From Candidatus Omnitrophota bacterium (GTDB taxonomy: Bacteria; Omnitrophota; Gorgyraeia; Gygaellales; Profunditerraquicolaceae): a DNA stretch of 64,000 bases. Positions within the stretch are counted from its first letter, which is position 1; every line of letters starts with the position of its first letter. The notes beneath the pieces were generated by a model. That model did no database searches, was not told the DNA's origin, and worked only from the letters and a program-made list of their open reading frames with translations. A program made the translations under genes and the position numbers. The stretch covers positions 40,010-104,009 of the forward strand of contig JBAZUE010000002.1 in NCBI GenBank assembly GCA_041661605.1, read 5' to 3'. Shown here one piece after another: positions 7,219 to 41,530 of this stretch.

Positions 7219-7223
7219 AGATT

Positions 7224-7439
7224 TTATGTTAAGGGATCATAACCTGACCGGCCAGAAAAAGGATGGCAACGCAGAATTCTTGTTAGCCCTTTACATACTC
7301 CTTTAAATAACCCATATTTTAAGATAGCCTGTTTTGTATATTCAGAACATCCCGGCTCAAAACGGCAGGTTGCCGGAATAGCCGGCCTTAAATATCTCTG
7401 ATATGCAGATATCAATTTAAGTATCAGGTTCGCCGGCAT
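7224..7439 (-). CDS. yidD: membrane protein insertion efficiency factor YidD
   Basis: CRFEPGCSEY...RILRCHPF..G.DP motif. The ORF-track start at 7448 is TTG; the ATG at 7437-7439 overlaps the rpmH stop in the string TAATG. Confidence 0.85.
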   Translation of the reverse strand: MPANLILKLISAYQRYLRPAIPATCRFEPGCSEYTKQAILKYGLFKGVCKGLTRILRCHPFSGRSGYDPLT

Positions 7440-13226: not shown

Positions 13227-14063
13227 ATGGAAATAATGACGCCGGGAAAATATAAGAAAAGCATCCATCCAGTTGCCATTTTTAAGGAGGCCTGGGGCAT
13301 CTGCAGGAATAATTTAGGAAAATTAGGAGCTATCTATTTTATTTTTAACTTACCGATTATTATTTTTTACTTGACCCCTGTGGCAAGCAAACTACAGGAT
13401 CAGAAACCAAACCTTCAGATGTTTCTCGGGTTTTTTATTCCGGCCTTAATAATCAGCATTTGGTGCCATATTTCTTTATTGTTGGGGGTTAAAAAGGCGG
13501 CTGATCTTGAGGTTTACACAATCGGTCAAAGCATAAAGCAAACAAAAACATTCTTTCTTAAATATTTTGGCACAGTTCTGGTCGTTTTTTTATTTTTGAT
13601 GGGCATGATAATATTGGGGGGTTTATCTGCCGCAATAATTTTACCTTTATTATTGAAAGTTAACAAAATACTGGCTGCGCTGGTTTGTCTTATTTTGGTA
13701 ATCGCACTTATTGTTTTCTTAGCCTATTTTATGATTCTTTGGTCTCTTGCCACAACGGCGTGCGTTCTTGAAAATCTTCGTCCAATTACTGCTTTGAAAA
13801 AAAGCTCATCTTTAATTAAGGACTATGTGCTGGCATCTGCAGGGACTTATTGTTTGATTATACTTGTATATATTGCCTGCCTGCTTCCTTTTATTATTAT
13901 AGGAACATTCCTGGGTCTTGGTAATTATCCCGACCTGGCTAACCGGGTGGGTACAATATACAGCATGTTTATCAATATTGTCTTGGTGCCGTTTTGGTCT
14001 GCGGTCGCAGTAATATTGTATAAAAAATTAAAAGAGGTCTTGGAAAGTCATGTATACGCGTAA
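13227..14063 (+). CDS. hypothetical polytopic membrane protein inserted between gyrB and gyrA
   Basis: 278 aa with about 6 hydrophobic helices and no catalytic motif that I recognise; overlaps the gyrA start by 14 nt. Confidence 0.5.
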
Positions 14064-31300: not shown

Positions 31301-34300
31301 CGCACGCTTATGGATGAGCTGCGGACAATAAATAATGTCGTATTTAAAGACGATGGAATTGAAGCGGGAATTGAGGTGTATACCCAATCCGTGAAGATCG
31401 TAATGAATACATCCGCTGAAAGCGTAAAAATCTACCGGTTACAAAATAGCCAAGAAAAAATAACGCATGATCAGCGAGATTCTCACCGCTATTATACAAA
31501 TTATGGCTGGCAAATAGAACGGGCTATTGAGGATTATATCTTGGATAAGCATGATAAGGATATGCTTTTAAGTTTTATGCCCGTTAAATTAAGGGATAAC
31601 GAGTATTATGGATACATAACTAATAAATTAAAGTTAGAATCGTTATTAAAAGGGATAGTTAAAATAATAAGTGATTTTAGAGAATACGAGTACCGTGATT
31701 TGGCAGAAATAATTGCTTTATTGCAAAAAGAAGAGCGCGTTAATCAACAACTGCTCATTAATTGGTTGATGGCGGCGCAAAAACAGGGGCGGTCTTTGCG
31801 CTCGGCGCTTGATAAATTACAAGAGTTGTTAAAACTGCTGCAGGGTGAATCTTCGGAAGCCGTGGCCGCAGGAATAAGCCTACTTATTAAACATCCTTAT
31901 TTAAGGGTATCGTATTTACGCGTTTGGCTAGAAGATGCCGCAGCTCGCGGGCAAGACAAGGCAAAGCTTGTCGGCGACCTGAATAATTATTATACCATAA
32001 CAAGGGCATTGTTAAGGGCAGGCAATTATGAAAATGAAATAGCCGGAATGATACAATCTGTATTGACAGATAATATTGAAATCCGCAGGCATAGTTTATT
32101 AAGCTGGCTCAAGGCTGTGAAGCTGCATGGCAAAGACGCAAAAATGTTTTTATCGGAATTAAAGAAATTAGCCTTAATTAATAAAAGATTTATTGAGGAG
32201 TTGGAAACCAGGCGGCCCCGTTCCGGGTACGGGTATGAATATAAATGGTTCGAGGATACCCTTTTATCGCAAAGCGGAAAGCTGCTTTTGGCTTTAGGGG
32301 GAATATATGATTCCGGATATCTTAATAAGCTGCTTCCGTTATATACAGGCGGATATCTTTCTAAGTCTTTGGGTGAAAAAGGGTATATATATCTTGAAAG
32401 AATATCCAGCATTCTGGAAGAGAATATTAATCTCATTGATTCTGGAAGTTTGCTTGAGCTTAAGAAGAGAGAAATTGGCAGTAATGATCGACTGCAGTCT
32501 TTGATATTGGCAAAAGTTTCGGTTGACCCTTCTTTTATCCAGTCGATCACAGATAATATAAAAAAAGAAGAGAATCCGCAAGTTAATAATAATTTATTAA
32601 GATTATTATTCAGCCTTGAAGGCGCGGATGAAGCAATCCACGATATATTAATGAACATTAACCCTGAAGAAATCGCGCGAAAAACGATAAATAACGAATA
32701 TAACTGGCAGTGGAACTTATTAGAGCTATGGCCGGAGAATGAAAAAAGTATAGCCAGGATTATGAAAAAATACCCTGAGTTGCTTTCAAAAGTGTTCGCC
32801 ATAGCCAAGCCTCTAGTGTCAACTTATGAAGACAGGCCGCCGTATTACAAGAGGCATTTCCCGCTTATTATATCCGCCGCGTTAAGCAATTCGCGGGAAC
32901 TGAGTGTTTCTGCGGATGAATTCAGGGATTTATTTAAAATACTTAATAATTGGCGTTACCGTCCGGAATGTTTAGGGGCGATTTCCTACGCCGTGCTTAA
33001 CAATCCTTCTCTTTTTCGGGAACTACTTACAGAAGATCATATATTTGATGCCGATTATTTGCTTGGAGTAAAAATAATTCCAATTGAGCTGCGCATGAAG
33101 CTGCAAAGGCAGTTTCTTGAGAGTTTTAAGGATGCCTTTCGTGAATTAAGGCCGGAAGAGTCTTCCAGGATGCTGGCGGGCATGATCAAGAATATAGTTA
33201 TTTATGGGCGCGTAGAAGCGAAAGATTTGGACCTCTTAGCGGTTTTTCCCGAGCGACAGGCAGTAGCGAATACGGTATTTTTCTGCAGAGAGCTGCGAAA
33301 AATAGGCTATGATTTCAATAAATATGATTATTTTACTTTCGGAGATTTTCGTTTTATTCATGAATTAGCGCAGCAACCGGATATAACGGCATTTTTGCGC
33401 AAATTAAGGAGCTACGGATTCGTCTTCCAAGACGCTTATTGGGGGTATCATTCCAATGACAGAATCGGGATTTTAAGCGATATATTCAATAAAAGAGAGG
33501 AGTACTTTTCAAAAATTGAAGCGATACGCTCCGTGCTCCCGGATTTTAAATACCAGCCTTTACTAGAAGGCCTTAGCCCGGAATCGGTACTGGCTTCTTT
33601 ATTGGAACGTTATCCCAGTCAGGCGGTTAGCATGATGAATGACCCGGAAGGCGTGCTTAAGGCGATTAATCCGGAAGCTGCCCCTTACGCGAAAAAAATA
33701 AGAGAAATTTGTACTGTCTTTAATTTTCCCGTTTTCCTTGTAAGCGGATTTATCAGCGGTTCGCTGAATAATTTATTACCGGGATTAACCACGCCAGATG
33801 ATTTTATCTATTCAGTATTTATCGAAAATTCCGTTGAACAGGAATTTAAGGATAAATTCACGGCATTTTTATCCGGTTACACAAACGGCACCCAGGGCCA
33901 ATTCAATATGTTGATACAGGCATTCCGTTCCGGCCTTAATGGTTCGCGGCAGTCTTCACAGGTTGCCGAAGTCATAGGGGGCTGGTTTTGTAGCGCATAC
34001 ACGGTTTTTTCATTACCCAAGGATATTAGTATGGCCATGCAAAATATATCTTCCGGTAATATGGATAATAGCGACCCGGTGTATGTGCTCGCAAATTACC
34101 TGGCTATTAGCAAGGCGTTGCAAAGGGAAGGAATGCAGCGTAGCGTTACATATAAAGATGTTTTAAGTTTAATTGAAAAACGGGCTGGCGGCAGTGGGGC
34201 GTTCGAGGATATCCCTGAAGAGCATATGCGCAATATAGAAGGGCTGGTGTATGAGGCTGTTATTATTTGGAATAAGCTTTTGGAAACAGAGCGCGCCGGA

Positions 34301-37300
34301 AAAAAGCAAATAGTAGTCGCAAATTTGTCTTACGGAGGGGTAGCGGTTACCCCAATCACCGAAGAGAGAAGCGGTAAGGCTTATGTGGTGGGTACTCAGA
34401 TACCGGTTTGGCATACGAAAGTCGGCTCTACTCCCGCGCACAATAATGAATACGTACTGGTTAATGATTTATTCACTCCAGAACAAATAAAGTATTTGGC
34501 CGAAGAAATGCCGTTTGTTTCGGTGGTAGACGGCAGCACTTCCATAGCCGCATCCGACAGGAGCTCTCCGCACATACCCGATGCTTTTAAAGGATACCGT
34601 AACTATTTTATCGTTTTAAACCACGCGCTGGGTGAATCATTTGACCCGAAAGATTTCGACGTTGATGAGGAATTCGTGAAAGGCTTGCTGGCCACCGTTG
34701 AAGCCCAGGAACTTATTAAAAAGATACAGGCTATGTCAATCAAACCGCGTGCCCCTAACGCTTATAAATTCGGTTTTTCTTATGAGCGTAAAGCGGATTC
34801 CCAAAAAGGGGAATTTTTGTATCTGCGCGTGGGTAAAAAAGAAGCTACTGAAGCAAAAAAGCTGAATATCGGTGAAGCTCTAAAACAAGATAATCCTTTC
34901 TGTATGTTCCTTCAATCCTGCGTTCACCCTGATGACGTTGACAAAAAGTTGATGCCCGAAGAATACAAAGCGGGCTATTATGATGATACGAACCACTTTA
35001 AAGAATTCTACCTTGATTATGAAGACGGTTACGGAGTCGTGCTTTCCAAGCGTTACGCCTATGCGGCAAGAGAGCTATTCAGGAGATTTATGCTGCAAAA
35101 AGGAATTAATGTTATGTCCGGCCGTTTTACTACTGATGCCATTCGCCCGATTGATACATTGGTTCTGGACTTAGACGGCACGCTTACCGAAGCCATTGGA
35201 GGGAATATAGAAAACGGGACGGCCGATATTATTAATTATCTATTAAAAAAAGGCGTAAGGATAATTATCATTACTGATGATATTTTGGAGAATGTTGAAA
35301 AAAGAATCGCAAAATTGGACAAATCCGCTAACCTGGTTGTTCTTACCGATGGTGGGGCAAGAGGAGATGAAGGAATGTTTGAGCAATACAACGCACAAAA
35401 TATAATAAGCCCTGATTTAAGAAGCAGGGTCTTAGGTATAGCTCAGGCGAATTTCCCATTCGGCTCGTGGAAAGAAGGAAAGAAAGACTCTCTTTACCGG
35501 ATTCAAATCACGGATATCCAGGAGAGAACCGATTTTATCAAGCGTTTTCAGGATTTACTTGTTCAGGAAGGTATTGAGGCTAAAGTATATAAAGTTGGCA
35601 GGAATTCGGCGCGCGTTACCATTGCGCACAAAGAAGCGGCCTTCGCCGAAGCAATAAAAATGTTTGGTATTGATGTGTCTAAATCGCTGATTATCGCGGA
35701 TTCAGCCCGGTCTTACCGTATTGACCGTAAACTTTTGACTGCTTTTCCGGAAAGCGTAAGCGTTAATATAGGTAAATTCTCCCCTAGTATCGAGAGCGAG
35801 AATCAGAGAATTATTCAATATGCCGGGCAAGGTACAAGCGCAACAAAAATGCTGCTATCGAGTATAGCGTTTAGGGGCGGGCTGCCGCAGCATCTACTGC
35901 TTTCTTCTATGCAAAACCAGCCTTTGGAATATATGGAGGCCGCCAGTTCGCTTACTCAAAGCGCTTCACTAAGTCTATCCAATCTTTTTGAACCGCGGCA
36001 GCTGTCTTCCGCTGGTTCGGCGCTGGAGGAGGTAAATCTTCAAAAGATCTCGGCGGCGCTGGGGAAAATGGAAAAACAGGCTGTTGACGAAAAAGAAATA
36101 TACGGTTTAGCCGCGAGGTTGAAGGAAGCGTTTAAATGGGATGATTACTTCGGGAATTTTACCCCTGAGATGTGGATTGAGCTTTTGCGTTGTAAGGGAG
36201 TTAAAGAATTAAAGGGCTTAGATATAAAGGATGGAATACTAATAAAACAGGGTGATACCGTAAATGACGAACAGGCAATGTTCCTTATTGAAAAAGGAGG
36301 GGTGAGGGTTAGCGAAGATGCGCATGGAATTTGGATCGCGGATTTAGAGGAAGGGAATTATGTCGGAGAAATAGGCGCGGGCTCTTCAAATAGGCTGCGT
36401 ACAGCCACAGTGCGGATAAAAGAGGGGGCGCCGGAAACGAAATTTTTGGCAATACCTATGAGTGTATTTAGTGCCTTGGGGCTATCCAGGGTATTTTCGG
36501 AAATAAGCAGGCAACGCAGCAACCGTCTGAAAAGCAGAGAGAGATTAGCCGAGAAGGATTACACTCGTATATTGAAAAAATATCCGGATACAGAGTATGA
36601 TGAAGATAGCCCTGTAACAAAAGCTTATAACCTGGCATTAAAAATTATCAATCCAAAAGAAAACCCATTATCCGTGGACGTTACTTACCATAATCCTTAC
36701 CATTGGAATGAGTTGCTTGATTTTATCGATATTGTCCTACAGGGTATGGGGGATAATCTAAAGAATAAAAATAGGAAAATTATATTTATGTTGGCAAGGG
36801 TTGCGGCATATTTGCACGACATAGGGTATTATTTATCTAATGACCAAGGGAAGTTTACCGTTGTTGGACACGAAGACAGAAGCAAGGAATTTGTGCGTAA
36901 CAATATGAAAGAGTTAGGGCTTAGCAGCCGCTATGTCAATGCAATTCAGTTTATGATAGAGCATACTAAGCTTAAAATAGGAGAGGAGTTTGAAAATAAA
37001 TTGGGTTTAATAAACCAGGCGTTAGCGGAAATACACAATGGTAAATTATCTGATAAAACAGGGGTTTTTCTTAAAGAAATTTTGCCTGATTTAGACTTGA
37101 ATCTGGATAGTGATCTTGATTTTGCTAACGATGTTTTAATCGCTGCTAAGGCTCTTGCCGTAGCAGACCTGTATGCGGCAACCGTTGATATGGTTCCGTT
37201 TTTGTGGCTTGAATTTACTTTGGAAGGTTCTCCGGCAGGCAAGACGACTATGTTAGAACAAATAGCGGCCTCCCGCGATTTTCATAAAGGCGTTGTTGAA

Positions 37301-40300
37301 CCGCAACGGTTAAAATTGCTTTTAGAGGGAGGTTTCGGGTTAGAAAAGTTAATAATGGATAGTGGCTCGTTAGAGCGGTTAAAGAACGCCAGAGAGAAAA
37401 ATATCGGTATAATGCAGCAGTATGCCGAAGCGGTAAAACAGATAAAGGCAAGTGATACTGCCGAATCAGTTAAAAAAACAGCTGAAACGAATTTAATAAA
37501 TCTTATTAACGGCCTTAATGATGATATGGTTGGTCCGCTTAAAGATGAGTTGCTGGCTGAAGTAAAAACACTTGTTTTAAAAAGCAGCGCTGTTGGCGCG
37601 GGGTCGGCTTTACAAAATCCGGAAACAGGATTAATCGGCAGTAAAACACTTGGAAATTATAAATTTGTTCTGCAAGGCCAGGGCAAAGAAGGATACTTGT
37701 TAAAAATTTTTGGCAAAAGGGGTGTCGCAGGAGAAATAAAATTTAGATTACATGATCTTCCCGATGGCAGAAAAGGAATCTTTGTAGAAAATGTATTTGC
37801 TAACGATACTTATCGCGAAGATTTTAGGAAAGATTTTGAAAAAGGGATATATTCAAATATGCTAAAAGAGATTATAGAAATAGGGGAACAGTATTCCCGT
37901 GATATAAACAAAGTAACCGAAATAACCGGAGCGATAAATAATATAGAGACTCTGCAGGGTCTTTATGGCGCTATTGCCGGCAGTCGTCCAACAGAAGAGC
38001 GAGAAGAGGTTGAAAGGCTAAGTGGTATAGAGAAAAAGAATTATTATGAACATACAGAACCGCTGATTAAGATGTTAAAGAAAGCCATAATTGAAGAGGT
38101 GGGTAGCGAAGAAGGCAGGATGGAGCTTGATAGGAAACTTCCGGATACCCTTTTAGTAAAAGCCAGGTCAGGTGGGGGGTTCTCGGAAAATCACCGTATG
38201 CGGGTAGAGAGAGATCAGATAATCCTTATATCTAACACGCCGGTTCATTCCGCAGGCTCTTCGCTTGAGATGCGTCCAGAAGAAGCCGCTAAATTAATAA
38301 GGGAAGCGGTGCAGGAAAACTATGAAAAATGGGGCCTTTTATCCGAGCGTTTAAAAACAGCAAGGCGTATTTTGGTCCGGGTTCCCGGACGCGATAACCG
38401 TGGCGGCCACGAATTCCCATTAGGGGAGATAGCTGCTACTCTGCCCATATTAATCAAAACGCTGATTATTTCTGGAGAAAGCATCGAAAAGATAATAGTG
38501 CAATGTGATTCTTATCCGGAATTGGTAGAAGCGCTAGGAGAAAATAGGGTCAAATTAGCTGAGCCTAGTAAGACAACCGACGAATTAAGGTCTATTTATT
38601 CCCCGGATTTGGTTATTGATTTTGACACGGTAGCATTGGGTGAGGAGATTCCGGAAAACACAGTAAAGTTCCCAGTGGCAAAATTATGGATGTCTTTAGA
38701 TCGTCATAGGGAAATGCGTGAAATTTTAACTTCAGCAGGATTAAGCATTCCTAAAGAAGGCGAAGCAATTATCAGGAGAGAAAGGGAAAGGGATGGGCAG
38801 ACGACCATATTTGTAAATCCGCATAGTGATAGCAATAAGAATGATAATGTAGATTTGTGGGTAGGGTTAATACAGGAACTTGTTGCAAGGGGGTATAAAG
38901 TAGTACTTAATTCGGGTAAAGAGGCAGGAAAAGACCAGGCACATTCAAAAAATATATTAGAGAAGCTTAGAGAAGAAGTGAGATTGGGGGATGTGAAAGA
39001 ATTTAAAGGGAGTATTACGGATCTTTTAAATACCTTCTCAAAGAAAATAGACGGAGTAGTAACTATAGATAGCGGCATATTCCACGTAGTGCACAATTTG
39101 TATTCCTTACCTGCAGTCGTTTTTACTACGTCGAACACATTAGGTTGGATTCCGCAGGAAAAGGAGGAGTTATTATTTAAGAGGGTTCAATACTCAGATT
39201 TGAAAGATTCTTCTACTGCAGTAGAGTTATTGCGGAGTTTATTAGAGAGAGAAGAAAAAGCAGACGCCAGCTCGCCGGCTGCGCCGGGAGATTCTGTTGT
39301 GCCTCAAGATTCGACTTCGAACCTTAACGTAGTATTATTGTCGAAAATCGAAGATCATATGAGAACGGAATTAAAAAAAATAGATGATGCGATTGATAGG
39401 GAGATAGAGGGCATGCCCTTTGATGATAAACCGCACCGATTGTCCGACAAAATAATGGAACGTTACCGCCTCTTGTTTATCGAATTTTGCGAAATTGGCC
39501 GTGGCATACCGGAATTTGATCACCTATCATATTTAATGCAGGACGGAAAGTTTACTCCGGCAATGGCTATGAACGCATTGCAGGGATTATTCTTAAAAGA
39601 AAACAGGCTTTTGGTATTTTCTATTGGAAGAGATCCTGTTGATGGAAGAATTATAGAAAATATGCCCGCGCTTTCAGTGTTTAAGGTAAAAGAAACGCAA
39701 CTAGTTACAGAAGATATTATAGATAAGCATGTAGATGCATTGGCAATATTTGTTGATGGCTTGATTGTGCAAGATTACGTCACAAGGCGCCGTATGGGAT
39801 TTGAATCTTATCTAGCATTTGCCATACATGGGGTGACCATCGATGGAGCAATACCAGTTGTAGTAAATAAGGGAAGTATTGCTGCTGAACTTAAGCGTTA
39901 CTACGGAATGCGTTTAGAAATGGAAGCTACGGGTCAGCTTCCGGATTTCTATAGAAAGAATATTCCGCTTCTCAATGAGGCGTTGGCAAAACTTTTGATA
40001 AAACAGTGGCCTCAACCAAACAAAGATATCTCCGATTTTATTGCGAAGCATTTGGACGAATATATACGTAGAATTGTATTGCATGAATTAACGCATGTGC
40101 GTATAGCAGGCACGGATGATGATGAAATATTCGCGTATCTTGTTGAGATCGCGCAGACGCCTTATAGCTGGTTAAGGCTATTTGATGTCGTTTATAGTAT
40201 TAGTCCTCCAGTTAGAAGCACGTCGATCGAGCATGATTATGCCTCAAATAATTTTCTGCGTAACTTTATTCAGGGTATTTTCCAAAAGTACGAACCTGGT

Positions 40301-41530
40301 TCGTTAAAGGGTATTCCTGAGGATCGGCATCGTGCTGCGGCAACCAAATTACCTGATACTTATCCTGCAGGACTATTCATGGCGATCTCTGATATTCCTG
40401 AAGAAGTGCTTAAAGCAGAGGCGAAAACAAAATTTTTGGAATTAAAAGAAAAATCATCGAGTTCCATTATTTCTGCGGATAAACCTGCCAGTTCGGAGAT
40501 ACAATTAGATAACACTTATGATGGACTTTTTAATCGTCTTAAAAACATAAATGGAGGGGAGAAAGAAGTAAATTTAGGATTTTCAAAGGATACAGCCAGG
40601 AGGCTCAAAATAAGAATAACTGGGTGGATGAATGGATTAAAAACGAGGAAGAAAGAATTTGATCTGTTCGCTGCTAATAATCAAGCGTTGAGTGAAGAAA
40701 AATCCCGAAAATTAAATAAATTTATAAGCGGAATCGCTAATTATGTAAAAACAAGACGCAGCCTTGTGAGTCCGCAGGAGCCTCTAGCTGTTGCTGAAAA
40801 GATATTGTTTACTACGGTTGGATATGGGTATCCTTATGCGGAAATCGATATAACAAGCTTGCCTTCAGCCGTGAAATTTTCTACTACAATATTGGCCAAG
40901 AGCTATGATGATAAATTTAGAGAAATAATAGATGAAGCGATGGATAGAATTCAGAGGATACTTAAGGTTTTAGACAAATTGGCAGAAGAGAAATTGGCAG
41001 AAGAAAAAGATATAGACTTGGTTCTTAGCGGAAGAAGTGGACAGGAGACTGTGGTAGTCAGAGAAGAAACGATACGAAGGATTTACAATGAAATATCAGG
41101 AGCTTCCAGCTCTCTAGTAGAGGATGGAAAAGGTGGCATAGACATGCGTTCTTTGTCGCAATATACGGTTATCCAGCCAATGACGGGATCAAACTTTTCC
41201 AAGCAGGGGCACTCCTTTTCGGGAACGGCCCCTCTTCCTGATAAAGAATGGCAGGAGATAGAAAGGATGGCGAATTCAGGAATAGCTCCTTCCTCTGAGC
41301 GATTAAGAGAATACCTTTTGTCTTTGCAGGATCCAAGCAGCCAGACAGATAAAGTCCTTGCCTGTATTGCGGATATCTTAAGACAGGAGGAAGAAAAAGC
41401 CTGCTGCACGGAGTCTTCTTTAAAGGAGATTCTGGCTTTGCTTGAATCAGGCAAGCCGGATAAAGAATTAAGGCTGGCATTAACAAAAATACAGGTTTTA
41501 GCTAAAGAGCCGCAATTGATAGAGCAATAA
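19355..41530 (+). CDS. giant multidomain protein, 7,391 aa, with a signal-peptide-like N-terminus (see findings)
   Basis: Uninterrupted 22,176-nt reading frame. N-terminal segment MKTKSSRSFKIIAIIISFLLVFEQSGFAQVAG. Internal motifs HEVGH, DLDGT, GEIG..RTATV, HD, a GT9-like fold and HELTH. Confidence 0.85.
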   Translation: MKTKSSRSFKIIAIIISFLLVFEQSGFAQVAGELDISRHFFALQNSFSQERFRPLHLRYLAYDPGANNFNLLLDKGDFVKGLSPKGAVPEQELKNQTKELLNYFFIGISLPNESFWVNLRPDAEDNIIDSELAETDVGKILLEADLQLKKDTANFTSPQAPEGKDYWDKLYKKAEELYGDENITIPTLTRPWIVPDEIIIRESSDNAYIYKATLKVMLEQDYLKNSSTYSFQDQRSKTLNEYSSQLIRETIIPKLTKEINSSKRYAPLRQVYYSLILAQWFKQKFYGKSGLYSYLIDRHKLDGLTSETPWSKTTYFNSYRTSFQQGEYNIKEPRYTPYGQTIRSYMSGGLDLGQIVSSAIIQGVVQGNKDYGPGSLISKHGLGFHFSGGTVSNPFGLKVDVVLPIDTDIPRAIGQLPVVGSPLSGNSPLLQKQASSRSLISKNNETNFLSRALKNLSALAGAVFVSGGRFKRGTLERILNGQGINLKIDVSIGDIADDFMELSAFTVFLIPKKILKECVSSLEFGANPSGAYTDADEPGLYSNEDKRVYIYQRSFAFWDAYLLARIILHEVGHGFEGGFSEEDAGKIKAAYSLIRQKISNGYKDYSLYLKHDDNILSLDNRKAIVTYTDKPDSSQFIAEFFREYILNGEELRDKIGSQKDSEVKEALATIYSIYKKRFNREYYPRDVKSLRGILERIPETVGKHIARDYKQFSEFRGVAGIFYLRYGLTLDEYSALAEKEGQDVALESLYKTIVSGLASKTQVEFEQWKLKLAATKQALYDKLISVLHDYAQAITSMHSGDIDDAGLQSILQDFRRVLLEIKTQSSPKSNEYILATEYAPIVFNVSLSALSQESRLPSLDDILSKQYQSAGSSLERGFRDLLGDYYWQELERLQVQGFNANDLNVSLMSSDKESAETIIKVFRKLDINAVFHAIKNDPKSFNLLLRKMLGSDKFIQYLKNTLESLDRDKYILNNAERFNQYMGIFDMFFPHDATLLQRIKFWFNKIQRLVNNWIRMLEKLAIANGNIAPLNLLWEYAQKADYKTQLEAVRKIRDLQGQFIKVYESGYRESEGSIVAQVSRKYFITLTSSLGIIEQMKANQEWLEKFNLAEIDKALSLIRKNFLGVIIDLVATGKKSANPMFILNRMELFKDVASLARNLEVLKKLQKDPKIEDETFLYLSFLPFEDLNKIIQRASLIFKDAGIVMRLNVSILDWLLKLNEDGFDNLTRNVDALSAGNEMFLLTLGSSDLEFLLNLEYEEAKTMGSIISRLGYGFGYNYFELVSNMLKNAKNSPGQKEEILSITAEDIQRWQDHNQEDFYQLNKIYRSLATSDNTVNLIVTVIKKKDISIIVPFETLESFGLYRQEMEPFNKFMNTSARYENKREIAVLFARWVSIISTADASFTESAMPAIKSAFEEYFNSDRRDKYAALRNSLEAVLEATIRKLLEEVTGEAIPQEKISRLEEGGRLQKIITVVSLYYSIIAKNEQSEADKKQMQERVTEILKKFISEEAAESDVEQWIIGSIEENRKAMDALLAAGYDKRLWEEGVRVEGEIRRGLGEEEKKAQINKQAQEIIDRAKKMGLPVKNIKIESYEDARDVFKTILDSKENIINSGRASNEDFEGHVNRIRDILGKIKDISGKYLNGRSEKAEIVIKKDFFAESLSGNNSYSGCFKAFAGFHQEMPLKHALEVNTAIGIVYIGGKPVANVVLALTDKGVVVYGDYKEDYDLGPLWAEAWKELAKLSPAVILGGNSAGRKASEKSGKIRNIFSFKAIKTATLWEHVSSDLGRTDENGDVYYIIQPALILTSRSIARSGSDKNDNSGKANLVIPKNQLSENEQEQQRVSPTDKFNKDRGRIVREIMANPELNELNLKPLLSNFERVIFDFDEQETEELAASLNSRLDAKRKITETEKSALTQKLAEIKRKYNSPSASSPIKAGESAGSAAEAFSSGLAVKDELIASVRGNSWRPVLPADSFAAKFIPLFNKLDQNSVPEEFPIVSVVDNGLQLPDSDKLCLQDKTTASRLKKEGIEFLSGELLGSNMFLKTLKAECAKEDSDLKRFLKQHFVYAMSPSLLWQGETNNSSIKYVQEMLGDNIIKKYPQTAKAFIPLIQSLFQKLPARQGINFFESVTGGTSCGNTRRALSGTVPLSKMLVYVYQLNSAMEGVYLKTNKNPEALGAFIDLGFDPPLYSSVEAISYALELLLAQWKNVGLKEGASMFFELGLRQALERTSDSPYRQYIFRFAALKESNWFARITDDFSSIDNNLTSEEWFGFAAREKEFSEFIDILAGNGYKFSRFDARELLMLSSKEGMKDFVADLISYGYRFKKEHITALLEMFGRREEIINKVKEIKTACPEFTYYIFDDATRLSYEPINVLADFLKRNRRAAVNMVNNLETALTYMNPEALLQAEKIREVCKAFNSPAFLISSFLSGSLNGLLSKFTGEDDFMRFALTADVIEKNFKKAFIAFLSGYKQGTQSQFDILMEIFLSSISDVERSSKIADIIGNWFSAADTTFSLPRDINAAMQSISSGNMDNRNPVHVFASYLAISKALQQEGMQRGVTYKDVLGLAEKRANRKEGFEGIPQEHMRNIEGVVYEAVIIRNKLLEIERAGKKQIVVANLSYGGVAVTPITEQKNGQAHIVGTQIPVWYTKVGSTEAHNNEYVLVYDLFTPEQIKVLIEEKPFVSVVDGSTSVADSDRSSPHIPDAFKGYRNYFIVLNFALSESFNPKDFDVNEEFVKSLLATDEAKELIRKIRSIAVKPRVPNAYKFGFSYERKADSEKEEFLYLREGKKEAAKATKLNVDEIIKQQNPFCIFIQSCIHPNDVDKKLMPEEYRAGYYDDRGHFKEFYLDYKDGYGVVISRRYADAAREFFMQFMSRDEADSAGSSVEQNKESGIDLSRRKGILISLATVLTLKILGPSKALAELLGSDEIYYLHLANSEPKNAVLDFKKYKAQPFAKNVLKAAINKNADVVLEHAEVFINETYAQELFELATQTWPQSILRHAYQIIKQPYAQGIIEIAASKYPTGALEYSFNYAKQPYAQKIIETAAKSEPVAALKFAKAYIEESYAKGILEQAAKKNYLATLEYSRNYFRKEYMRPIIEQCARKSAWGALRFASGYLNMPGARQLIEAAAELSPDTALRYSFEYMEAPYAKDIIIKSALQDPAAAIINTGGVGWVLEEKRKDIPEIDIILRIAASEYRGKQERIGALLDMIMNDIATGTEAGRAMYKANKISENDNEFFKELMKIKTNKSSRGVASVDRFLKRLSSILIRDMNDMHDLTAERRFSALSDYDASMLYTMIVYGEDEVYTSTFNGIFNILIKKMKGNNISGEKLLEMVGKNKFRVFIKLTAAFKRLNEFWDILEAKNKKDELIKEFVQGLAGIRIDNERLSQAIAVADTFSVINGGYQQVILREAIEEYKKMETAGNKEGVRIYGILISIFGRQLSIEEPWFQQMYQNYPVPDLTAIDGSQLFDPNGAQANTQVHFFYHDPYGKNSFANFKKLFNKNEIKESPDKSFIVIARQRADKKIIIYANNPYTDAVKGQMQIDKALKERGIEPQVVVHRGHSFHLSDTIERITAKAKIVFLGACGGYNYIVDVLERAPLAHIISTKGTGKNDVNNPLLDMLNNELLSGKGIQWEGFWGKAKKRLGNTKDFLDYVPPHRNLGVLFLKTYYNVAENVSKTIPQPRNQSFLREIIDGLTMEAILPITVFNMAINKIADRSPMDRREFFGLGKKTSQSGSADSSISREVMAGSSLRNPLPAAPASELQEGQENQNGMDRRTFLGALGGLAGLTFLLGLSDSGNAAGMPQENVQPEESAQKAVDWDKARGFIIDKLAEKYPEKKQAQDIKVAFGEYEKDKSKAYRQINKLLNSMAKEMDKEQRIGLNSNGWYTVYFIYIDGLYEEFGHKILFPFGRRFAFLDSKNNQGTRKVMEQVLEEEAATVKKVIGTLFGGLSLLGAGKFVYDKIIKPFFSRRFTRTLMDELRTINNVVFKDDGIEAGIEVYTQSVKIVMNTSAESVKIYRLQNSQEKITHDQRDSHRYYTNYGWQIERAIEDYILDKHDKDMLLSFMPVKLRDNEYYGYITNKLKLESLLKGIVKIISDFREYEYRDLAEIIALLQKEERVNQQLLINWLMAAQKQGRSLRSALDKLQELLKLLQGESSEAVAAGISLLIKHPYLRVSYLRVWLEDAAARGQDKAKLVGDLNNYYTITRALLRAGNYENEIAGMIQSVLTDNIEIRRHSLLSWLKAVKLHGKDAKMFLSELKKLALINKRFIEELETRRPRSGYGYEYKWFEDTLLSQSGKLLLALGGIYDSGYLNKLLPLYTGGYLSKSLGEKGYIYLERISSILEENINLIDSGSLLELKKREIGSNDRLQSLILAKVSVDPSFIQSITDNIKKEENPQVNNNLLRLLFSLEGADEAIHDILMNINPEEIARKTINNEYNWQWNLLELWPENEKSIARIMKKYPELLSKVFAIAKPLVSTYEDRPPYYKRHFPLIISAALSNSRELSVSADEFRDLFKILNNWRYRPECLGAISYAVLNNPSLFRELLTEDHIFDADYLLGVKIIPIELRMKLQRQFLESFKDAFRELRPEESSRMLAGMIKNIVIYGRVEAKDLDLLAVFPERQAVANTVFFCRELRKIGYDFNKYDYFTFGDFRFIHELAQQPDITAFLRKLRSYGFVFQDAYWGYHSNDRIGILSDIFNKREEYFSKIEAIRSVLPDFKYQPLLEGLSPESVLASLLERYPSQAVSMMNDPEGVLKAINPEAAPYAKKIREICTVFNFPVFLVSGFISGSLNNLLPGLTTPDDFIYSVFIENSVEQEFKDKFTAFLSGYTNGTQGQFNMLIQAFRSGLNGSRQSSQVAEVIGGWFCSAYTVFSLPKDISMAMQNISSGNMDNSDPVYVLANYLAISKALQREGMQRSVTYKDVLSLIEKRAGGSGAFEDIPEEHMRNIEGLVYEAVIIWNKLLETERAGKKQIVVANLSYGGVAVTPITEERSGKAYVVGTQIPVWHTKVGSTPAHNNEYVLVNDLFTPEQIKYLAEEMPFVSVVDGSTSIAASDRSSPHIPDAFKGYRNYFIVLNHALGESFDPKDFDVDEEFVKGLLATVEAQELIKKIQAMSIKPRAPNAYKFGFSYERKADSQKGEFLYLRVGKKEATEAKKLNIGEALKQDNPFCMFLQSCVHPDDVDKKLMPEEYKAGYYDDTNHFKEFYLDYEDGYGVVLSKRYAYAARELFRRFMLQKGINVMSGRFTTDAIRPIDTLVLDLDGTLTEAIGGNIENGTADIINYLLKKGVRIIIITDDILENVEKRIAKLDKSANLVVLTDGGARGDEGMFEQYNAQNIISPDLRSRVLGIAQANFPFGSWKEGKKDSLYRIQITDIQERTDFIKRFQDLLVQEGIEAKVYKVGRNSARVTIAHKEAAFAEAIKMFGIDVSKSLIIADSARSYRIDRKLLTAFPESVSVNIGKFSPSIESENQRIIQYAGQGTSATKMLLSSIAFRGGLPQHLLLSSMQNQPLEYMEAASSLTQSASLSLSNLFEPRQLSSAGSALEEVNLQKISAALGKMEKQAVDEKEIYGLAARLKEAFKWDDYFGNFTPEMWIELLRCKGVKELKGLDIKDGILIKQGDTVNDEQAMFLIEKGGVRVSEDAHGIWIADLEEGNYVGEIGAGSSNRLRTATVRIKEGAPETKFLAIPMSVFSALGLSRVFSEISRQRSNRLKSRERLAEKDYTRILKKYPDTEYDEDSPVTKAYNLALKIINPKENPLSVDVTYHNPYHWNELLDFIDIVLQGMGDNLKNKNRKIIFMLARVAAYLHDIGYYLSNDQGKFTVVGHEDRSKEFVRNNMKELGLSSRYVNAIQFMIEHTKLKIGEEFENKLGLINQALAEIHNGKLSDKTGVFLKEILPDLDLNLDSDLDFANDVLIAAKALAVADLYAATVDMVPFLWLEFTLEGSPAGKTTMLEQIAASRDFHKGVVEPQRLKLLLEGGFGLEKLIMDSGSLERLKNAREKNIGIMQQYAEAVKQIKASDTAESVKKTAETNLINLINGLNDDMVGPLKDELLAEVKTLVLKSSAVGAGSALQNPETGLIGSKTLGNYKFVLQGQGKEGYLLKIFGKRGVAGEIKFRLHDLPDGRKGIFVENVFANDTYREDFRKDFEKGIYSNMLKEIIEIGEQYSRDINKVTEITGAINNIETLQGLYGAIAGSRPTEEREEVERLSGIEKKNYYEHTEPLIKMLKKAIIEEVGSEEGRMELDRKLPDTLLVKARSGGGFSENHRMRVERDQIILISNTPVHSAGSSLEMRPEEAAKLIREAVQENYEKWGLLSERLKTARRILVRVPGRDNRGGHEFPLGEIAATLPILIKTLIISGESIEKIIVQCDSYPELVEALGENRVKLAEPSKTTDELRSIYSPDLVIDFDTVALGEEIPENTVKFPVAKLWMSLDRHREMREILTSAGLSIPKEGEAIIRRERERDGQTTIFVNPHSDSNKNDNVDLWVGLIQELVARGYKVVLNSGKEAGKDQAHSKNILEKLREEVRLGDVKEFKGSITDLLNTFSKKIDGVVTIDSGIFHVVHNLYSLPAVVFTTSNTLGWIPQEKEELLFKRVQYSDLKDSSTAVELLRSLLEREEKADASSPAAPGDSVVPQDSTSNLNVVLLSKIEDHMRTELKKIDDAIDREIEGMPFDDKPHRLSDKIMERYRLLFIEFCEIGRGIPEFDHLSYLMQDGKFTPAMAMNALQGLFLKENRLLVFSIGRDPVDGRIIENMPALSVFKVKETQLVTEDIIDKHVDALAIFVDGLIVQDYVTRRRMGFESYLAFAIHGVTIDGAIPVVVNKGSIAAELKRYYGMRLEMEATGQLPDFYRKNIPLLNEALAKLLIKQWPQPNKDISDFIAKHLDEYIRRIVLHELTHVRIAGTDDDEIFAYLVEIAQTPYSWLRLFDVVYSISPPVRSTSIEHDYASNNFLRNFIQGIFQKYEPGSLKGIPEDRHRAAATKLPDTYPAGLFMAISDIPEEVLKAEAKTKFLELKEKSSSSIISADKPASSEIQLDNTYDGLFNRLKNINGGEKEVNLGFSKDTARRLKIRITGWMNGLKTRKKEFDLFAANNQALSEEKSRKLNKFISGIANYVKTRRSLVSPQEPLAVAEKILFTTVGYGYPYAEIDITSLPSAVKFSTTILAKSYDDKFREIIDEAMDRIQRILKVLDKLAEEKLAEEKDIDLVLSGRSGQETVVVREETIRRIYNEISGASSSLVEDGKGGIDMRSLSQYTVIQPMTGSNFSKQGHSFSGTAPLPDKEWQEIERMANSGIAPSSERLREYLLSLQDPSSQTDKVLACIADILRQEEEKACCTESSLKEILALLESGKPDKELRLALTKIQVLAKEPQLIEQ
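26475..27985 (+). repeat. copy 1 of a roughly 1.5-kb intragenic direct repeat (about 500-aa module) within the giant gene
   Basis: The encoded segment PINVLADFL...YGVVISRRYADAAREFF is about 75-80% identical, over about 500 aa, to the copy at 33580-35090. Shared motifs: GGVAVTPITE, SSPHIPDAFKGYRNYFIVLN, NPFC.F.QSC.HP.DVDKKLMPEEY. Confidence 0.85.
33580..35090 (+). repeat. copy 2 of the roughly 1.5-kb intragenic direct repeat
   Basis: Same as copy 1. The look-alike antisense ORFs 27059..27337 and 34169..34441 are by-products of this duplication. Confidence 0.85.
35147..35855 (+). other. HAD-superfamily (Cof-like) phosphatase module inside the giant protein
   Basis: Motif I LVLDLDGTLTE (DLDGT at nt 35168-35182); later ...VVLTDGGARG and ...IIADSARS. 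Confidence 0.6.
36140..36470 (+). other. cyclic-nucleotide-binding-like module inside the giant protein
   Basis: GILIKQGD...MFLIEKGGVRV...YVGEIGAGSSNRLRTATVRIKEG fits the cNMP-binding beta-roll signature G.E.G..........R.ATV.A. Confidence 0.55.
36660..37000 (+). other. HD-domain phosphohydrolase-like module inside the giant protein
   Basis: H..YHWNELLDF...ARVAAYLHDIGYY...GHEDRSKEF (HD dipeptide at nt 36815-36820). Confidence 0.55.
38340..39180 (+). other. GT9 (ADP-heptose:LPS heptosyltransferase-like) glycosyltransferase module inside the giant protein
   Basis: N-lobe RRILVRVPGRDNRGGHEFPLGEIAATLPIL...IIVQCDSYPELVEAL. C-lobe IFVNPHSDSNKND.VDLWVGLIQELVARGYKVVLNSG...GSITDLLNTFSKKIDGVVTIDSGIFHVVHNLYSLPAVVFTT; compare the GT9 consensus ...GKTSL.EL.ALI..A.L.VGNDSGPMHLAAAL..P.VALFG.T. 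Confidence 0.6.

What the first reader, a model, noticed from the sequence alone, without database searches (positions are those of the whole stretch)
35147..40100. C-terminal third of the giant protein is a block of small-molecule enzyme modules: HAD phosphatase, cNMP-binding, HD hydrolase, GT9 heptosyltransferase-like, HELTHV zincin-like
Motifs are read directly: DLDGT at 35168-35182; GEIG...RTATV at about 36360-36410; HD at 36815-36820; GT9 N- and C-lobes at 38340-39180; HELTH at 40082-40096. Established: GT9 enzymes transfer heptose to the LPS inner core; HAD and HD domains are phosphohydrolases; cNMP-binding domains are allosteric sensors; the HE(L/A)xHV motif resembles DUF4157-type zincin domains seen in polymorphic or large effector proteins. 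Inference: a sugar-nucleotide or envelope-modifying enzymatic cassette delivered on a giant secreted scaffold. I do not know of a described system with this combination.
Basis: partly seen in the sequence, partly recalled or inferred. Interest (0 to 1): 0.65.

Follow-up and report, generated by a model that had tools for sequence, protein, structure and literature searches.

The report
Enzyme cassettes on Omnitrophota giant protein

Summary
HAD, cNMP-binding and HD modules pass Pfam's own cut-offs when scanned alone. The GT9-like module falls below cut-off, but a family profile and a confident AlphaFold model both place it nearest WaaF/WaaC/TibC. HELTH is a conserved HExxH(+Glu) site in a roughly 390-residue module that has no Pfam, PDB-sequence or significant fold match. 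It is not DUF4157.

The block is not one pathway. It is a row of autonomous cassettes separated by an enriched junction peptide (AGS[SA]L / ASSP). The cassettes lie between a signal-peptide-bearing head and a C-terminal tail, both conserved in at least 552 loci, almost all of them in Omnitrophota. One family member always sits between rsmI and pyrR. Its length there ranges from 850 to 7,391 aa and its cargo is almost never shared.

Multi-enzyme giant proteins with HAD, HD and glycosyltransferase domains are already described for this phylum, so this is a new member of a known kind. Which compartment the modules work in, and whether the protein is cleaved at the junctions, remains open.

The parts
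19355..41530 (+). Giant ORF, 7,391 aa (NCBI MFA6130369.1, 'hypothetical protein', Candidatus Omnitrophota MAG)
19355..20464 (+). N-terminal Sec-type signal peptide (aa 1-28) plus the conserved family 'head' domain (aa 29-370)
   Evidence: Kyte-Doolittle (KD) hydrophobicity peak 1.81. The head is 62-87% identical in relatives. No Pfam, NCBIfam or PDB match.
33305..35092 (+). Second copy of an internally duplicated ~600-aa domain of unknown function (aa 4651-5246; first copy aa 2293-2878). It abuts the HAD module with no junction motif between them.
   Evidence: 63% identity between the two copies. The same domain-then-HAD order occurs in P0031. No PDB match.
35117..35938 (+). HAD-IIB (Cof-type)-like phosphatase module, aa 5255-5528. 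Motif I is D5272-x-D5274-G-T5276 and motif II is T5307. K5426 is the putative motif III. Motif IV is D5449 with a second Asp (D5457) at unusual spacing.
   Evidence: Pfam Hydrolase_3 23.3 bits against cut-off 20.9. NCBIfam Cof-subfamily E=3.7e-5. PDB YhaX 3DNP E=1.2e-3, aligning motifs I-II. The same motif residues are present in the P0031 homologue.
35939..36025 (+). Inter-module spacer with two junction peptides, AASSL (aa 5529) and AGSAL (aa 5553)
36026..37597 (+). One cassette with no junction motif inside it. It holds a cNMP-binding domain (Pfam match aa 5628-5707; phosphate-binding cassette G5671-E5672...R5682-T5683-A) followed by an HD phosphohydrolase domain (H5821-D5822; candidate H5779/H5783, H5839, H5870, D5938).
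   Evidence: Pfam cNMP_binding 28.4 against 27.5 and HD 27.9 against 22. The alignment to CRP and PycTIR keeps the Glu and the Arg-Thr. CRP NCBIfam E=8e-6. Pycsar effector sensor domains E about 1e-6.
37598..38266 (+). Junction AGSAL (aa 6082), a module of unknown fold (aa 6087-6299) and junction AGSSL (aa 6300)
   Evidence: Homologues only in P0030, P0031, P0032 and P0035. No Pfam, NCBIfam or PDB hit. The GNAT idea was rejected.
38267..39265 (+). Divergent GT9-like GT-B glycosyltransferase module, aa 6305-6637. The N-lobe has 'PLGE6358IAATLP'. The C-lobe has 'FVNPHSDSNK6495' and 'T-I-D6572-S-G-I-F-H6577'.
39266..39280 (+). Junction peptide ASSPA (aa 6638)
39302..40453 (+). HExxH module of about 390 aa with no known relatives (aa 6650-7033). 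The site is H6910-E6911-L-T-H6914 with conserved E6924 and E6931. The predicted architecture is an N-terminal helical bundle, a long beta-hairpin sheet and a C-terminal helical domain that carries the motif.
   Evidence: 18-sequence alignment. AF2 pLDDT 91.7, pTM 0.89. No Pfam hit, no PDB sequence hit and no significant PDB or BFVD fold hit.
40454..41116 (+). Junction SSSSI (aa 7034), a small module of unknown function (aa 7039-7249) and junction ASSSL (aa 7250)
   Evidence: Homologues P0039, P0048 and P0033. No family hit.
41117..41527 (+). Conserved family 'tail' (GGIDMRSL ... ACIADILRQEEEKA ... KEPQLIEQ)
   Evidence: Shared with P0001, P0030, P0031, P0033, P0035, P0036 and P0039. Found in 40 of the 80 head-bearing loci within the DNA held.

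Best explanation
Identity (about 0.85 confidence). The region is the cargo end of an Omnitrophota 'head-cargo-tail' giant protein. A signal peptide and a conserved ~340-aa head open the protein, and a conserved ~140-aa tail closes it. Between them lie autonomous cassettes, each bounded by a short junction peptide of small residues.

In window 35117-41527 the cassettes are:
1. A Mg-dependent HAD-IIB-type phosphomonoesterase, joined to the duplicated domain upstream of it.
2. A cyclic-nucleotide-binding domain fused to an HD metal-dependent phosphohydrolase. This most simply reads as a cNMP-gated hydrolase.
3. A module of unknown fold.
4. A divergent GT9-like GT-B glycosyltransferase that keeps the donor-site D-S-G-x-x-H.
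5. A previously undescribed HExxH/Glu metallohydrolase-like module.
6. A small unknown module, followed by the tail.

Mechanism (inferred, about 0.4 confidence). Head and tail provide export and anchoring. The cassettes are interchangeable effector activities, not steps of one pathway. They act on envelope, nucleotide or protein substrates at or inside the partner (host or prey) cell of this episymbiotic lineage. That compartment would supply the cofactors they need, namely nucleotide sugars and cyclic nucleotides. Cargo is exchanged between species at the junctions.

What is shown and what is not. The folds, motifs, cassette boundaries, family architecture and cargo turnover are shown. Catalysis, substrates, compartment and any cleavage are not.
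For: Source and context:
- Neighbouring genes are exact matches to proteins of a Candidatus Omnitrophota MAG.
- The protein itself is MFA6130369.1.

Module assignments:
-.
- HExxH conservation and the confident novel model.

Family architecture:
- The head is 62% identical to P0001 and the tail is shared.
- The head profile finds at least 552 loci in GTDB species genomes. The best 80 are almost all Omnitrophota, with several loci per genome.
- All 80 have the head and 40 have the tail. The giant's cargo modules are found in only 2 of them.

Conserved chromosomal slot:
- At least 20 of the 80 loci show the family gene directly downstream of glmS-rsmI, and 8 of them also show pyrR-pyrB downstream of it.
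- Of 13 family genes measured, 12 are complete and span 850-2,971 aa. The gene in L002 runs off the fetched DNA and corresponds to the 4,873-aa P0033. The giant is 7,391 aa.
- Their cargo differs from species to species: methyltransferase, kinase-like plus GT4, GNAT, GT9-like.

Junction peptides:
- AGS[SA]L occurs 5 times against 0.04 expected.
- The broader motif occurs 91 times against 9.6 expected in 18 family proteins, and it sits at every module boundary in this region.
- Codons at the sites differ synonymously, so the motif is selected as a peptide.

Export:
- Most of the measured family genes have only the N-terminal signal peptide as a strongly hydrophobic segment.

Literature:
- Multi-enzyme and signal-peptide/TM-bearing giant proteins and a host-dependent lifestyle are reported for this phylum.
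Against: - All single-sequence scores are weak, at 19-28 bits.
- The GT9-like module fails the Pfam and NCBIfam cut-offs. It has Glu where WaaC has Asp13, and its family does not conserve the WaaC Lys192 position.
- HAD motif IV is atypical.
- The HD residues other than the HD doublet were assigned by eye.
- The HExxH module has no demonstrable zincin fold neighbour.
- No activity data exist.
- This giant, unlike most relatives, has one strong internal hydrophobic segment (aa 3786-3804) and two weaker ones (aa 2905-2925 and 3951-3968). These could put the C-terminal third on the cytoplasmic side. I could not run a proper topology predictor.
- The flanks are housekeeping genes, not the secretion or pilus genes reported next to the largest giants.
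- No delivery mechanism into a partner cell is known.
Confidence: 0.6

Rival explanations
1. Membrane-anchored protein with a cytoplasmic C-terminal third. After the exported N-terminal ~2,900 aa, three hydrophobic segments re-thread the chain, so that aa ~3970-7391 face the producer's own cytoplasm. There the cNMP-gated HD hydrolase, the HAD phosphatase and the GT9-like transferase act on the cell's own nucleotide and envelope precursors. This is the signal-transduction/regulatory module that Nielsen & Lui describe.
For: - Hydrophobic segments lie at aa 2905-2925, 3786-3804 (RR on its N-side) and 3951-3968 (Lys/Arg-rich C-side). Together they give a self-consistent out-in-out-in path.
- All recognisable modules need cytoplasmic cofactors.
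- HAD, HD, GNAT and methyltransferase domains co-occur in a 'signal-transduction/regulatory' community in the 916-protein catalogue.
Against: - Most of the measured family genes carry the same tail and cofactor-dependent transferases but have no hydrophobic segment after the signal peptide. In those proteins the tail and cargo would be outside. The tail would then have to work in different compartments in different family members.
- Two of the three segments fall below the usual hydropathy threshold.
- The strongest one looks like a Tat signal peptide rather than a transmembrane helix.
Confidence: 0.3
2. Polyprotein. The giant chain is cut at the junction peptides, possibly by its own HExxH modules, into separate enzymes that are then sorted individually. 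The fragment that starts after AGSSL-3756 would begin with a Met-Asp-Arg-Arg-x-Phe-Leu Tat signal and would carry the duplicated domain and the HAD module out of the cytoplasm.
For: - Junction peptides are about 10-fold enriched, lie at every module boundary and are conserved at the peptide level, not the DNA level.
- Unrelated lineages that carry the same HExxH module use other, equally regular junction peptides. P0037 has 21 copies of R[SA]E[VAL]R about 300 aa apart, against 0.1 expected.
- Internal Sec-like and Tat-like signal sequences follow junctions here and in P0033, P0051, P0054 and P0063.
- West-Roberts et al. proposed cleavage of giant proteins but had no candidate cleavage points.
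Against: - There is no proteomic evidence.
- Many family members with junction peptides lack any HExxH module.
- Ser/Ala/Gly/Pro-rich linkers are common flexible spacers and O-glycosylation sites.
- Internal signal-like segments could be relics of gene fusion or ordinary membrane anchors.
- No known protease family was detected.
Confidence: 0.15
3. One reading: one coherent sugar-nucleotide or LPS-core (ADP-heptose) modifying pathway, with the HAD as a GmhB-like sugar-bisphosphate phosphatase that feeds a heptosyltransferase.
For: - HAD phosphatase and GT9-like transferase occur in the same chain.
- The best GT hits are heptosyltransferases I, II and III.
- There is a weak HAD-IIIA hit.
Against: - The HAD has a ~115-aa cap between motifs II and III, and its best matches are IIB/Cof-type, not the capless GmhB type.
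- No GmhA- or HldE-like modules are present.
- The modules are separated by other cassettes and by junctions.
- The GT9-like module occurs without the HAD in P0033, P0036, P0060 and P0066, and the HAD occurs in P0031 in another arrangement.
- The genes measured in the same slot in other species carry GNAT, methyltransferase or GT4 instead.
Confidence: 0.1
4. The modules are decayed pseudo-enzymes that serve only as structural or binding units of a surface coat.
For: - Scores are very low.
- HAD motif IV is atypical.
- Glu replaces Asp in the GT9-like N-lobe.
- Some homologues of the HExxH module have lost both histidines (P0047, P0051, P0052).
Against: - In this protein the HAD nucleophile motif, the cNMP phosphate-binding cassette, the HD doublet, the GT9 D-S-G-x-x-H and the full HExxH+Glu are all present.
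- The nearly invariant positions of the GT9-like family include the donor-site Thr and Asp of T-x-D-[ST]-G.
Confidence: 0.1
5. Assembly or gene-calling artefact that fuses several genes.
For: Internal signal-peptide-like segments preceded by Met; the internal duplication.
Against: - 22,176 nt run without a stop in 41% GC DNA.
- The two duplicated copies are only 63% identical, so they are not a collapsed repeat.
- Head and tail are found at the two ends of many independent assemblies.
- The same protein is recorded by NCBI and IMG.
Confidence: 0.02

Closest known systems
Omnitrophota giant proteins: 'Archaeovorin'-type (West-Roberts et al. 2023, bioRxiv 10.1101/2023.11.21.568195) and 'multi-enzyme metabolic cluster' class (Nielsen & Lui 2026, bioRxiv 10.64898/2026.06.07.730766); giant ORFs >20 kb (Seymour et al. 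2023, PMC10066038)
   Same: - Same phylum.
- The ORF is longer than 20 kb.
- Signal peptide plus few recognisable, highly divergent domains.
- Many different enzyme domains tiled along one chain with none dominating (HAD, HD, glycosyltransferase, peptidase-like).
- Cleavage into smaller products has been suggested.
   Different: - At 7,391 aa it is below the 10-kAA and 30-kAA thresholds of those catalogues.
- It has no SecA-DEAD, C39, S8, dockerin or TSP3 domain.
- Its flanks are housekeeping genes, not T2SS/pilus/GH2 genes.
- The conserved head and tail, the fixed rsmI|pyrR slot, the junction peptides, and GT9-like or cNMP-binding cargo did not come up in my term searches and section reads of those papers.
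GT9 heptosyltransferases WaaC/WaaF and protein O-heptosyltransferase TibC (PDB 2H1H, 1PSW, 4RAP)
   Same: - GT-B two-lobe fold, with these structures as the nearest solved neighbours (E about 1e-7, TM 0.57-0.60).
- The profile hits them by sequence.
- The donor-site motif D-[ST]-G-x-x-H is kept.
   Different: - Only 12-18% identity.
- Below the Pfam and NCBIfam cut-offs.
- Glu replaces the catalytic Asp13.
- The Lys192 position is not conserved in the family.
- It is embedded as a cassette in a giant protein.
- Donor and acceptor are unknown.
MARTX toxins (conserved N- and C-terminal arms, exchangeable central effector domains released by an internal protease). This comparison is from my own knowledge and was not tested here.
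   Same: - Conserved ends with strain-variable central enzyme modules.
- Unstructured inter-module linkers that could be processing sites.
   Different: - No C80 cysteine protease domain or glycine-rich repeats were detected.
- The signal peptide points to Sec export rather than type I secretion.
- No homology.
- This is an analogy for how the protein might work, not membership.
HAD-IIB (Cof-type) phosphatases; CRP and Pycsar-effector cNMP-binding domains; HD phosphohydrolases
   Same: - Pfam cut-offs are passed.
- Signature residues are present.
   Different: - Far below every equivalog or subfamily cut-off, so no specific enzyme can be named.
- HAD motif IV has unusual spacing.
- I did not look for described cNMP-HD fusions, so I cannot say whether this pairing is known.
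DUF4157 (PF13699) and other zincins (e.g. M49 DPP III)
   Same: - An HExxH motif on a helix, followed by a helix that carries conserved Glu.
- A beta-sheet lies upstream.
- The best, though non-significant, fold hit is the Zn peptidase DPP III.
   Different: - No DUF4157 hit.
- No significant sequence or fold match to any peptidase family.
- At ~390 aa the module is much larger than DUF4157.

Membership tests
HAD superfamily, subfamily IIB (Cof-type) | Motif I DxDx(T/V), containing the Asp nucleophile | tested here: met
   D5272-L-D5274-G-T5276. It aligns with motif I of YhaX 3DNP.
HAD superfamily, subfamily IIB (Cof-type) | Motif II Ser/Thr; motif III Lys; motif IV acidic pair | tested here: inconclusive
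   T5307 aligns with the YhaX motif II Thr. K5426 and D5449 were assigned by eye and are conserved in P0031. The second acidic residue (D5457) lies 8 residues after the first, not the usual 3-4.
HAD superfamily, subfamily IIB (Cof-type) | Score above curated cut-offs | tested here: inconclusive
   Pfam Hydrolase_3 scores 23.3 against 20.9, so it passes. NCBIfam Cof-subfamily scores 23.4 against 137 and HAD-SF-IIB 16.2 against 41.8, so both fail. This supports superfamily membership only.
Cyclic nucleotide-binding domain (PF00027) | Pfam gathering score, and a phosphate-binding cassette with Gly-Glu and Arg-Ser/Thr-Ala | tested here: met
   28.4 against 27.5, a marginal pass. G5671-E5672 and R5682-T5683-A5684 align with CRP E72 and R82-S83.
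HD phosphohydrolase superfamily (PF01966) | Pfam gathering score and the His-Asp doublet; the full H...HD...D metal-ligand set | tested here: inconclusive
   27.9 against 22, with H5821-D5822 inside the match. The first His and the distal Asp (H5779/H5783, D5938) lie outside the aligned stretch and were assigned by eye.
Glycosyltransferase family 9 (PF01075; WaaC/WaaF/TibC) | Score above curated cut-offs | tested here: not met
   Pfam 19.6 against 22. TIGR02193 26.9 against 185.
Glycosyltransferase family 9 (PF01075; WaaC/WaaF/TibC) | GT-B fold with GT9 enzymes as the nearest structures | tested here: met
   AF2 pLDDT 88.4. The top 17 Foldseek PDB hits are all GT9. The profile hits 1PSW at E=1.3e-6.
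Glycosyltransferase family 9 (PF01075; WaaC/WaaF/TibC) | Catalytic and donor-site residues (WaaC Asp13, Lys192, Asp261-Thr-Gly-x-x-His) | tested here: inconclusive
   D6572-S-G-I-F-H6577 is present, and the Thr and Asp of T-x-D are nearly invariant in the family. E6358 replaces Asp13. A Lys (K6495) lies near, but is not aligned to, Lys192 and is not conserved.
Glycosyltransferase family 9 (PF01075; WaaC/WaaF/TibC) | Transfers heptose from ADP-heptose to the LPS core or to protein Ser | not testable with these tools
   Needs enzymology.
DUF4157 zincin (PF13699) | Match to the family model | tested here: not met
   No PF13699 hit at E<=10 for aa 6645-7045, nor for any of 18 homologous modules at E<=1.
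Zincin / gluzincin metallopeptidases in general | Conserved HExxH plus a third ligand on the following helix | tested here: inconclusive
   H6910 is present in 16/18 modules, E6911 is invariant and H6914 is present in 15/18. E6924 is nearly invariant and E6931 is at least 70% conserved. The motif lies at the end of a helix and the Glu residues are on the next helix.
Zincin / gluzincin metallopeptidases in general | Fold similarity to a known zincin | tested here: not met
Omnitrophota giant multi-enzyme proteins | Omnitrophota origin; ORF >20 kb; many different enzyme domains; signal peptide or TM | tested here: met
.
Omnitrophota giant multi-enzyme proteins | Length >=10,000 aa (Nielsen & Lui catalogue) or >30,000 aa (West-Roberts); SecA-DEAD or C39 domains; secretion or pilus genes in the flanks | tested here: not met
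   The protein is 7,391 aa. No such Pfam hits were found. The flanks are dnaA-gyrA-glmS-rsmI and the pyr operon.

The most novel reading that the evidence does not exclude
The giant is a bacterial polyprotein of junction-delimited cassettes. The lineage-specific junction peptides (AGS[SA]L/ASSP here; RSEVR or LRPLAA in other lineages) would be processing sites, cut by the previously undescribed HExxH module carried in the same chains. Cleavage would release individually targeted enzymes, including one fragment with its own Tat signal. The conserved head and tail, together with a fixed oriC-proximal slot, would form a platform on which Omnitrophota species swap effector cargo. If so, this gives the missing 'cleavage points' for Omnitrophota giant proteins.
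Probability: 0.15. Interest if true: 0.8.

Novelty: new member of a known kind. Interest (0 to 1): 0.45.

Why it matters
The finding itself, enzyme-like domains on an Omnitrophota giant protein, adds an example to a class described since 2023.

Three by-products of the check are more useful:
- A well-defined family with a conserved head, swapped cargo and a conserved tail. One copy is fixed between rsmI and pyrR, which gives a natural comparative system for studying how giant proteins gain and lose modules.
- Short junction peptides, selected at the protein level, that mark every module boundary. They give concrete, testable candidates for the cleavage points that earlier work said were missing.
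- A confidently modelled ~390-aa HExxH module, present in giant proteins annotated to at least Omnitrophota and Elusimicrobiota, with no sequence or fold relatives among solved structures.

Together these make the open question of whether giant proteins act whole or as processed pieces directly addressable by proteomics or by expressing single cassettes.

Tried and rejected
Searches that led nowhere:
- Word-indexed homologue searches were nearly blind to these sequences. Searches gave one tail-only hit, nothing, and one fragment. The exhaustive HMMER search was what found relatives.
- Single-sequence PDB searches of the GT9-like, HD, HExxH and duplicated-domain segments gave only noise.
- The head-domain profile against PDB gave nothing.
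- PADLOC shows no defence-system membership. Only the cNMP domain matches, and it matches the sensor domains of Pycsar effectors.

Ideas rejected:
- DUF4157 for the HELTH module: no hit.
- GNAT fold for the unknown module aa 6087-6299, which I suspected by eye. There is no Pfam, NCBIfam or PDB support, and hhalign against GNAT modules of orthologues gave probability 0.1.
- Junction motifs as DNA microhomology for recombination: codons differ synonymously.
- GT9-like or HExxH modules as common cargo of the family: found in only 1/80 and 0/80 loci.

Idea left undecided:
- Internal translation start at Met3782. There is no distinctive ribosome-binding site, but the genome's ordinary genes lack one too, so the test is uninformative.

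Full report
**What is there.** The window is an oriC-proximal piece of a bacterial chromosome. The gene order is dnaA, dnaN, gyrB, gyrA, glmS, rsmI, one 22,176-nt ORF (19355-41530, +), then pyrR-pyrB-pyrC, the rest of the pyr genes and a V-type ATPase operon. Ten neighbouring proteins are exact matches to proteins of one Candidatus Omnitrophota MAG, on a 113,887-bp contig. The giant itself is MFA6130369.1, annotated 'hypothetical protein'. The ORF has no internal stop and base composition is even across it.

**Check of the observation.** All motifs lie at the stated coordinates.

When the chain is scanned in 2,500-aa pieces, only HD reaches significance. When it is cut at the low-complexity spacers, the Pfam scores are as follows:

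| Module | Pfam model | Bits | Cut-off |
|---|---|---|---|
| HAD | Hydrolase_3 | 23.3 | 20.9 |
| cNMP-binding | cNMP_binding | 28.4 | 27.5 |
| HD | HD | 27.9 | 22 |
| GT9-like | Glyco_transf_9 | 19.6 | 22 |

- NCBIfam agrees at the superfamily level only: Cof-type HAD-IIB, CRP, HDIG and heptosyltransferases I/III, all far below the equivalog cut-offs.
- HAD motif I (D5272-x-D5274-G-T5276) and motif II (T5307) align with YhaX.
- The cNMP phosphate-binding cassette keeps the Glu and the Arg-Thr of CRP.

**GT9-like module.** An exhaustive HMMER search with aa 6086-7285 found 40 relatives.
- A 15-sequence alignment of the module hits WaaF at E=1.3e-6 and WaaC at E=4e-4 in the PDB.
- Nine of the 15 members hit PF01075.
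- The AlphaFold model is confident, with pLDDT 88.4 and pTM 0.87.
- Its best PDB neighbours are exclusively GT9: WaaF, WaaC, a Veillonella GT9 and the protein heptosyltransferase TibC.
- The donor-site D6572-S-G-x-x-H6577 is kept, and the Thr and Asp of T-x-D are nearly invariant in the family.
- The WaaC Asp13 position is Glu, and the Lys192 position is not conserved.

I therefore call it GT9-like, not a heptosyltransferase.

**HELTH module.** Eighteen homologous ~370-390-aa modules share an invariant Glu, both His (16/18 and 15/18) and a nearly invariant Glu 13 residues further on.
- The model is confident, with pLDDT 91.7.
- There is no Pfam match, no PDB sequence match and no significant PDB or viral fold match.
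- The best fold hit, which is not significant, is the zinc peptidase DPP III.
- It is not DUF4157.
- A metallohydrolase is the most economical reading, but it is an inference.

**Other parts of the block.** Two further modules (aa 6087-6299 and 7039-7249) have homologues only in close relatives and no family assignment.

**What the block belongs to.** The relatives show a family architecture. A signal peptide and a ~340-aa head (62-87% identical) open the protein, a ~140-aa tail beginning GGIDMRSL closes it, and different modules lie between them.
- A head profile finds at least 552 loci in GTDB species genomes. The best 80 are almost all Omnitrophota, with up to four loci per genome.
- All 80 have the head and 40 have the tail within the DNA held. 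The giant's cargo is found in only two of them.
- In at least 20 of the 80 loci the family gene follows glmS-rsmI directly, and 8 of these also show pyrR-pyrB downstream, as in the window.
- Thirteen family genes were measured. Twelve are complete and span 850-2,971 aa. The one in L002 runs off the fetched DNA and corresponds to the 4,873-aa P0033.
- Their cargo varies. L012 has a methyltransferase, L046 has a kinase-like module plus GT4, L027/L038/L039 have GNAT, and L004 and P0033 have the GT9-like module. The transferase is usually next to the tail.

**Junction peptides.**
- AGS[SA]L occurs five times in the giant, against 0.04 expected.
- The broader pattern [AGS][AGS]S[PSA][LVIAM] occurs 12 times in the giant and 91 times in 18 family proteins, against 9.6 expected. 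It marks every module boundary in the finding's region.
- There is no junction between the cNMP and HD domains, or between the duplicated domain and the HAD. Each of these pairs is therefore one cassette.
- Codons at the sites differ synonymously, so selection acts on the peptide.
- Other lineages that carry the HExxH module use other junction peptides just as regularly. P0037, for example, has 21 copies of R[SA]E[VAL]R.

**How it most likely works.**
- Shown: the region is a row of independent cassettes on a conserved carrier, and cargo is exchanged between species.
- Inferred: each cassette is an autonomous enzyme, namely a phosphatase, a cNMP-gated HD hydrolase, a glycosyltransferase and a metallohydrolase.
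- Inferred: head and tail handle export or anchoring.

The compartment is the main unknown. Most of the measured family genes have only the N-terminal signal peptide as a strongly hydrophobic segment. That argues for export of cargo which nevertheless needs acetyl-CoA, SAM, nucleotide sugars or ATP, and so for action in or on a partner cell. This fits the host-dependent lifestyle proposed for the phylum. This giant, however, has one strong internal hydrophobic segment (Tat-signal-like) and two weaker ones, which could return the last third to the cytoplasm.

I give about 0.4 to the exported-effector reading, 0.3 to the cytoplasmic-face reading and 0.15 to processing into separate proteins.

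**Comparison with what is known.**
- Seymour et al. 2023 report giant ORFs longer than 20 kb in most Omnitrophota.
- West-Roberts et al. 2023 define Archaeovorin-type giants with glycosyltransferases, methyltransferases, hydrolases, peptidases and NUDIX domains. They suggest cleavage but note that cleavage points are unknown.
- Nielsen & Lui 2026 describe 'multi-enzyme metabolic clusters' and a co-occurrence module containing HAD, HD, GNAT and methyltransferase domains.

My term searches and section reads of those papers did not turn up the head/tail family, the fixed slot, the junction peptides, the GT9-like or cNMP cargo, or the HExxH module.

**Verdict.** Interest is moderate at 0.45. It comes mainly from the junction peptides and the cargo-swapping locus, not from the domain list.

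Noticed in passing
window 26231-27988 and 33305-35092: A ~600-aa domain of unknown function is present twice in the giant (aa 2293-2878 and 4651-5246; 63% identical overall, 78% in the C-terminal half). The second copy abuts the HAD module, and the same order recurs in P0031. It has no Pfam or PDB match.
   Followed up: partly
giant aa 870, 1932, 1942, 2886, 3756, 5529, 5553, 6082, 6300, 6638, 7034, 7250 (e.g. window 36011-36025, 37598-37612, 38252-38266): A junction peptide of small residues (AGS[SA]L / ASSP) recurs at module boundaries. It is about 10-fold enriched across the family and conserved as a peptide, not as DNA. These sites are candidates for processing, modification or linker function.
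   Followed up: partly
window 28055-28135 and 30698-30790 (also 30536-30568): Signal-peptide-like segments lie inside the ORF, each shortly after a junction peptide. One is Sec-like (SRRKGILISLATVLTLKILGPSKALA) and one is a textbook Tat-like signal (M-D-R-R-T-F-L-G + Gly/Ala-rich core + NAAG). Similar internal Met-x-Arg-Arg-x-Phe segments occur in P0033, P0051, P0054 and P0063.
   Followed up: partly
window 21059-21073: A second HExxH motif (HEVGH, aa 569-573) lies in the N-terminal part of the giant, outside the finding. The surrounding region (aa 400-870) has one 31%-identical relative, in L011.
   Followed up: no
window 18540-42329; loci L001, L002, L004, L007, L008, L011-L013, L018, L022, L027, L030, L031, L037-L040, L046, L050, L054, L062: A head-cargo-tail gene occupies the same slot, directly downstream of glmS-rsmI, in at least 20 Omnitrophota species genomes; 8 of them also show pyrR-pyrB after it. 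Complete family genes measured across 12 loci span 850-2,971 aa, against 7,391 aa for the giant, and cargo is almost entirely different between species.
   Followed up: yes
L012, L046, L027, L038, L039, L004 (family genes in the same slot): The module just before the conserved tail is usually a group transferase: a methyltransferase, a GT4 or GT9-like glycosyltransferase, or a GNAT acetyltransferase.
   Followed up: partly
P0037 (7,044 aa; no taxon name in the sources), P0038/P0041/P0045/P0049/P0050/P0054: Proteins from other lineages that share the HExxH module use their own regular junction peptides. P0037 has 21 copies of R[SA]E[VAL]R spaced about 300 aa apart. Others have LRPLA(A/S), also placed directly after their N-terminal signal peptides.
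   Followed up: partly
window 36236-36475: Among defence-system models, the cNMP-binding domain's best matches are the sensor domains of Pycsar effectors (PycTIR, E about 1e-6). The ligand could therefore be a pyrimidine cyclic nucleotide rather than cAMP or cGMP.
   Followed up: no
L001 1522-5274; L040 3-7236; L054 594-4304: In some related genomes the gyrA or gyrB matches are split by gaps of about 1.2-1.4 kb. This may reflect inteins or insertions. The window's own gyrB and gyrA are uninterrupted, but an unannotated 278-aa ORF (13227-14063, no Pfam hit) sits between them.
   Followed up: no
window 46345-47913: The carbamoyl-phosphate synthase large-subunit gene encodes only 522 aa, about half the usual length (one ATP-grasp unit plus an MGS domain). 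The collection holds it only from IMG, not from NCBI.
   Followed up: no
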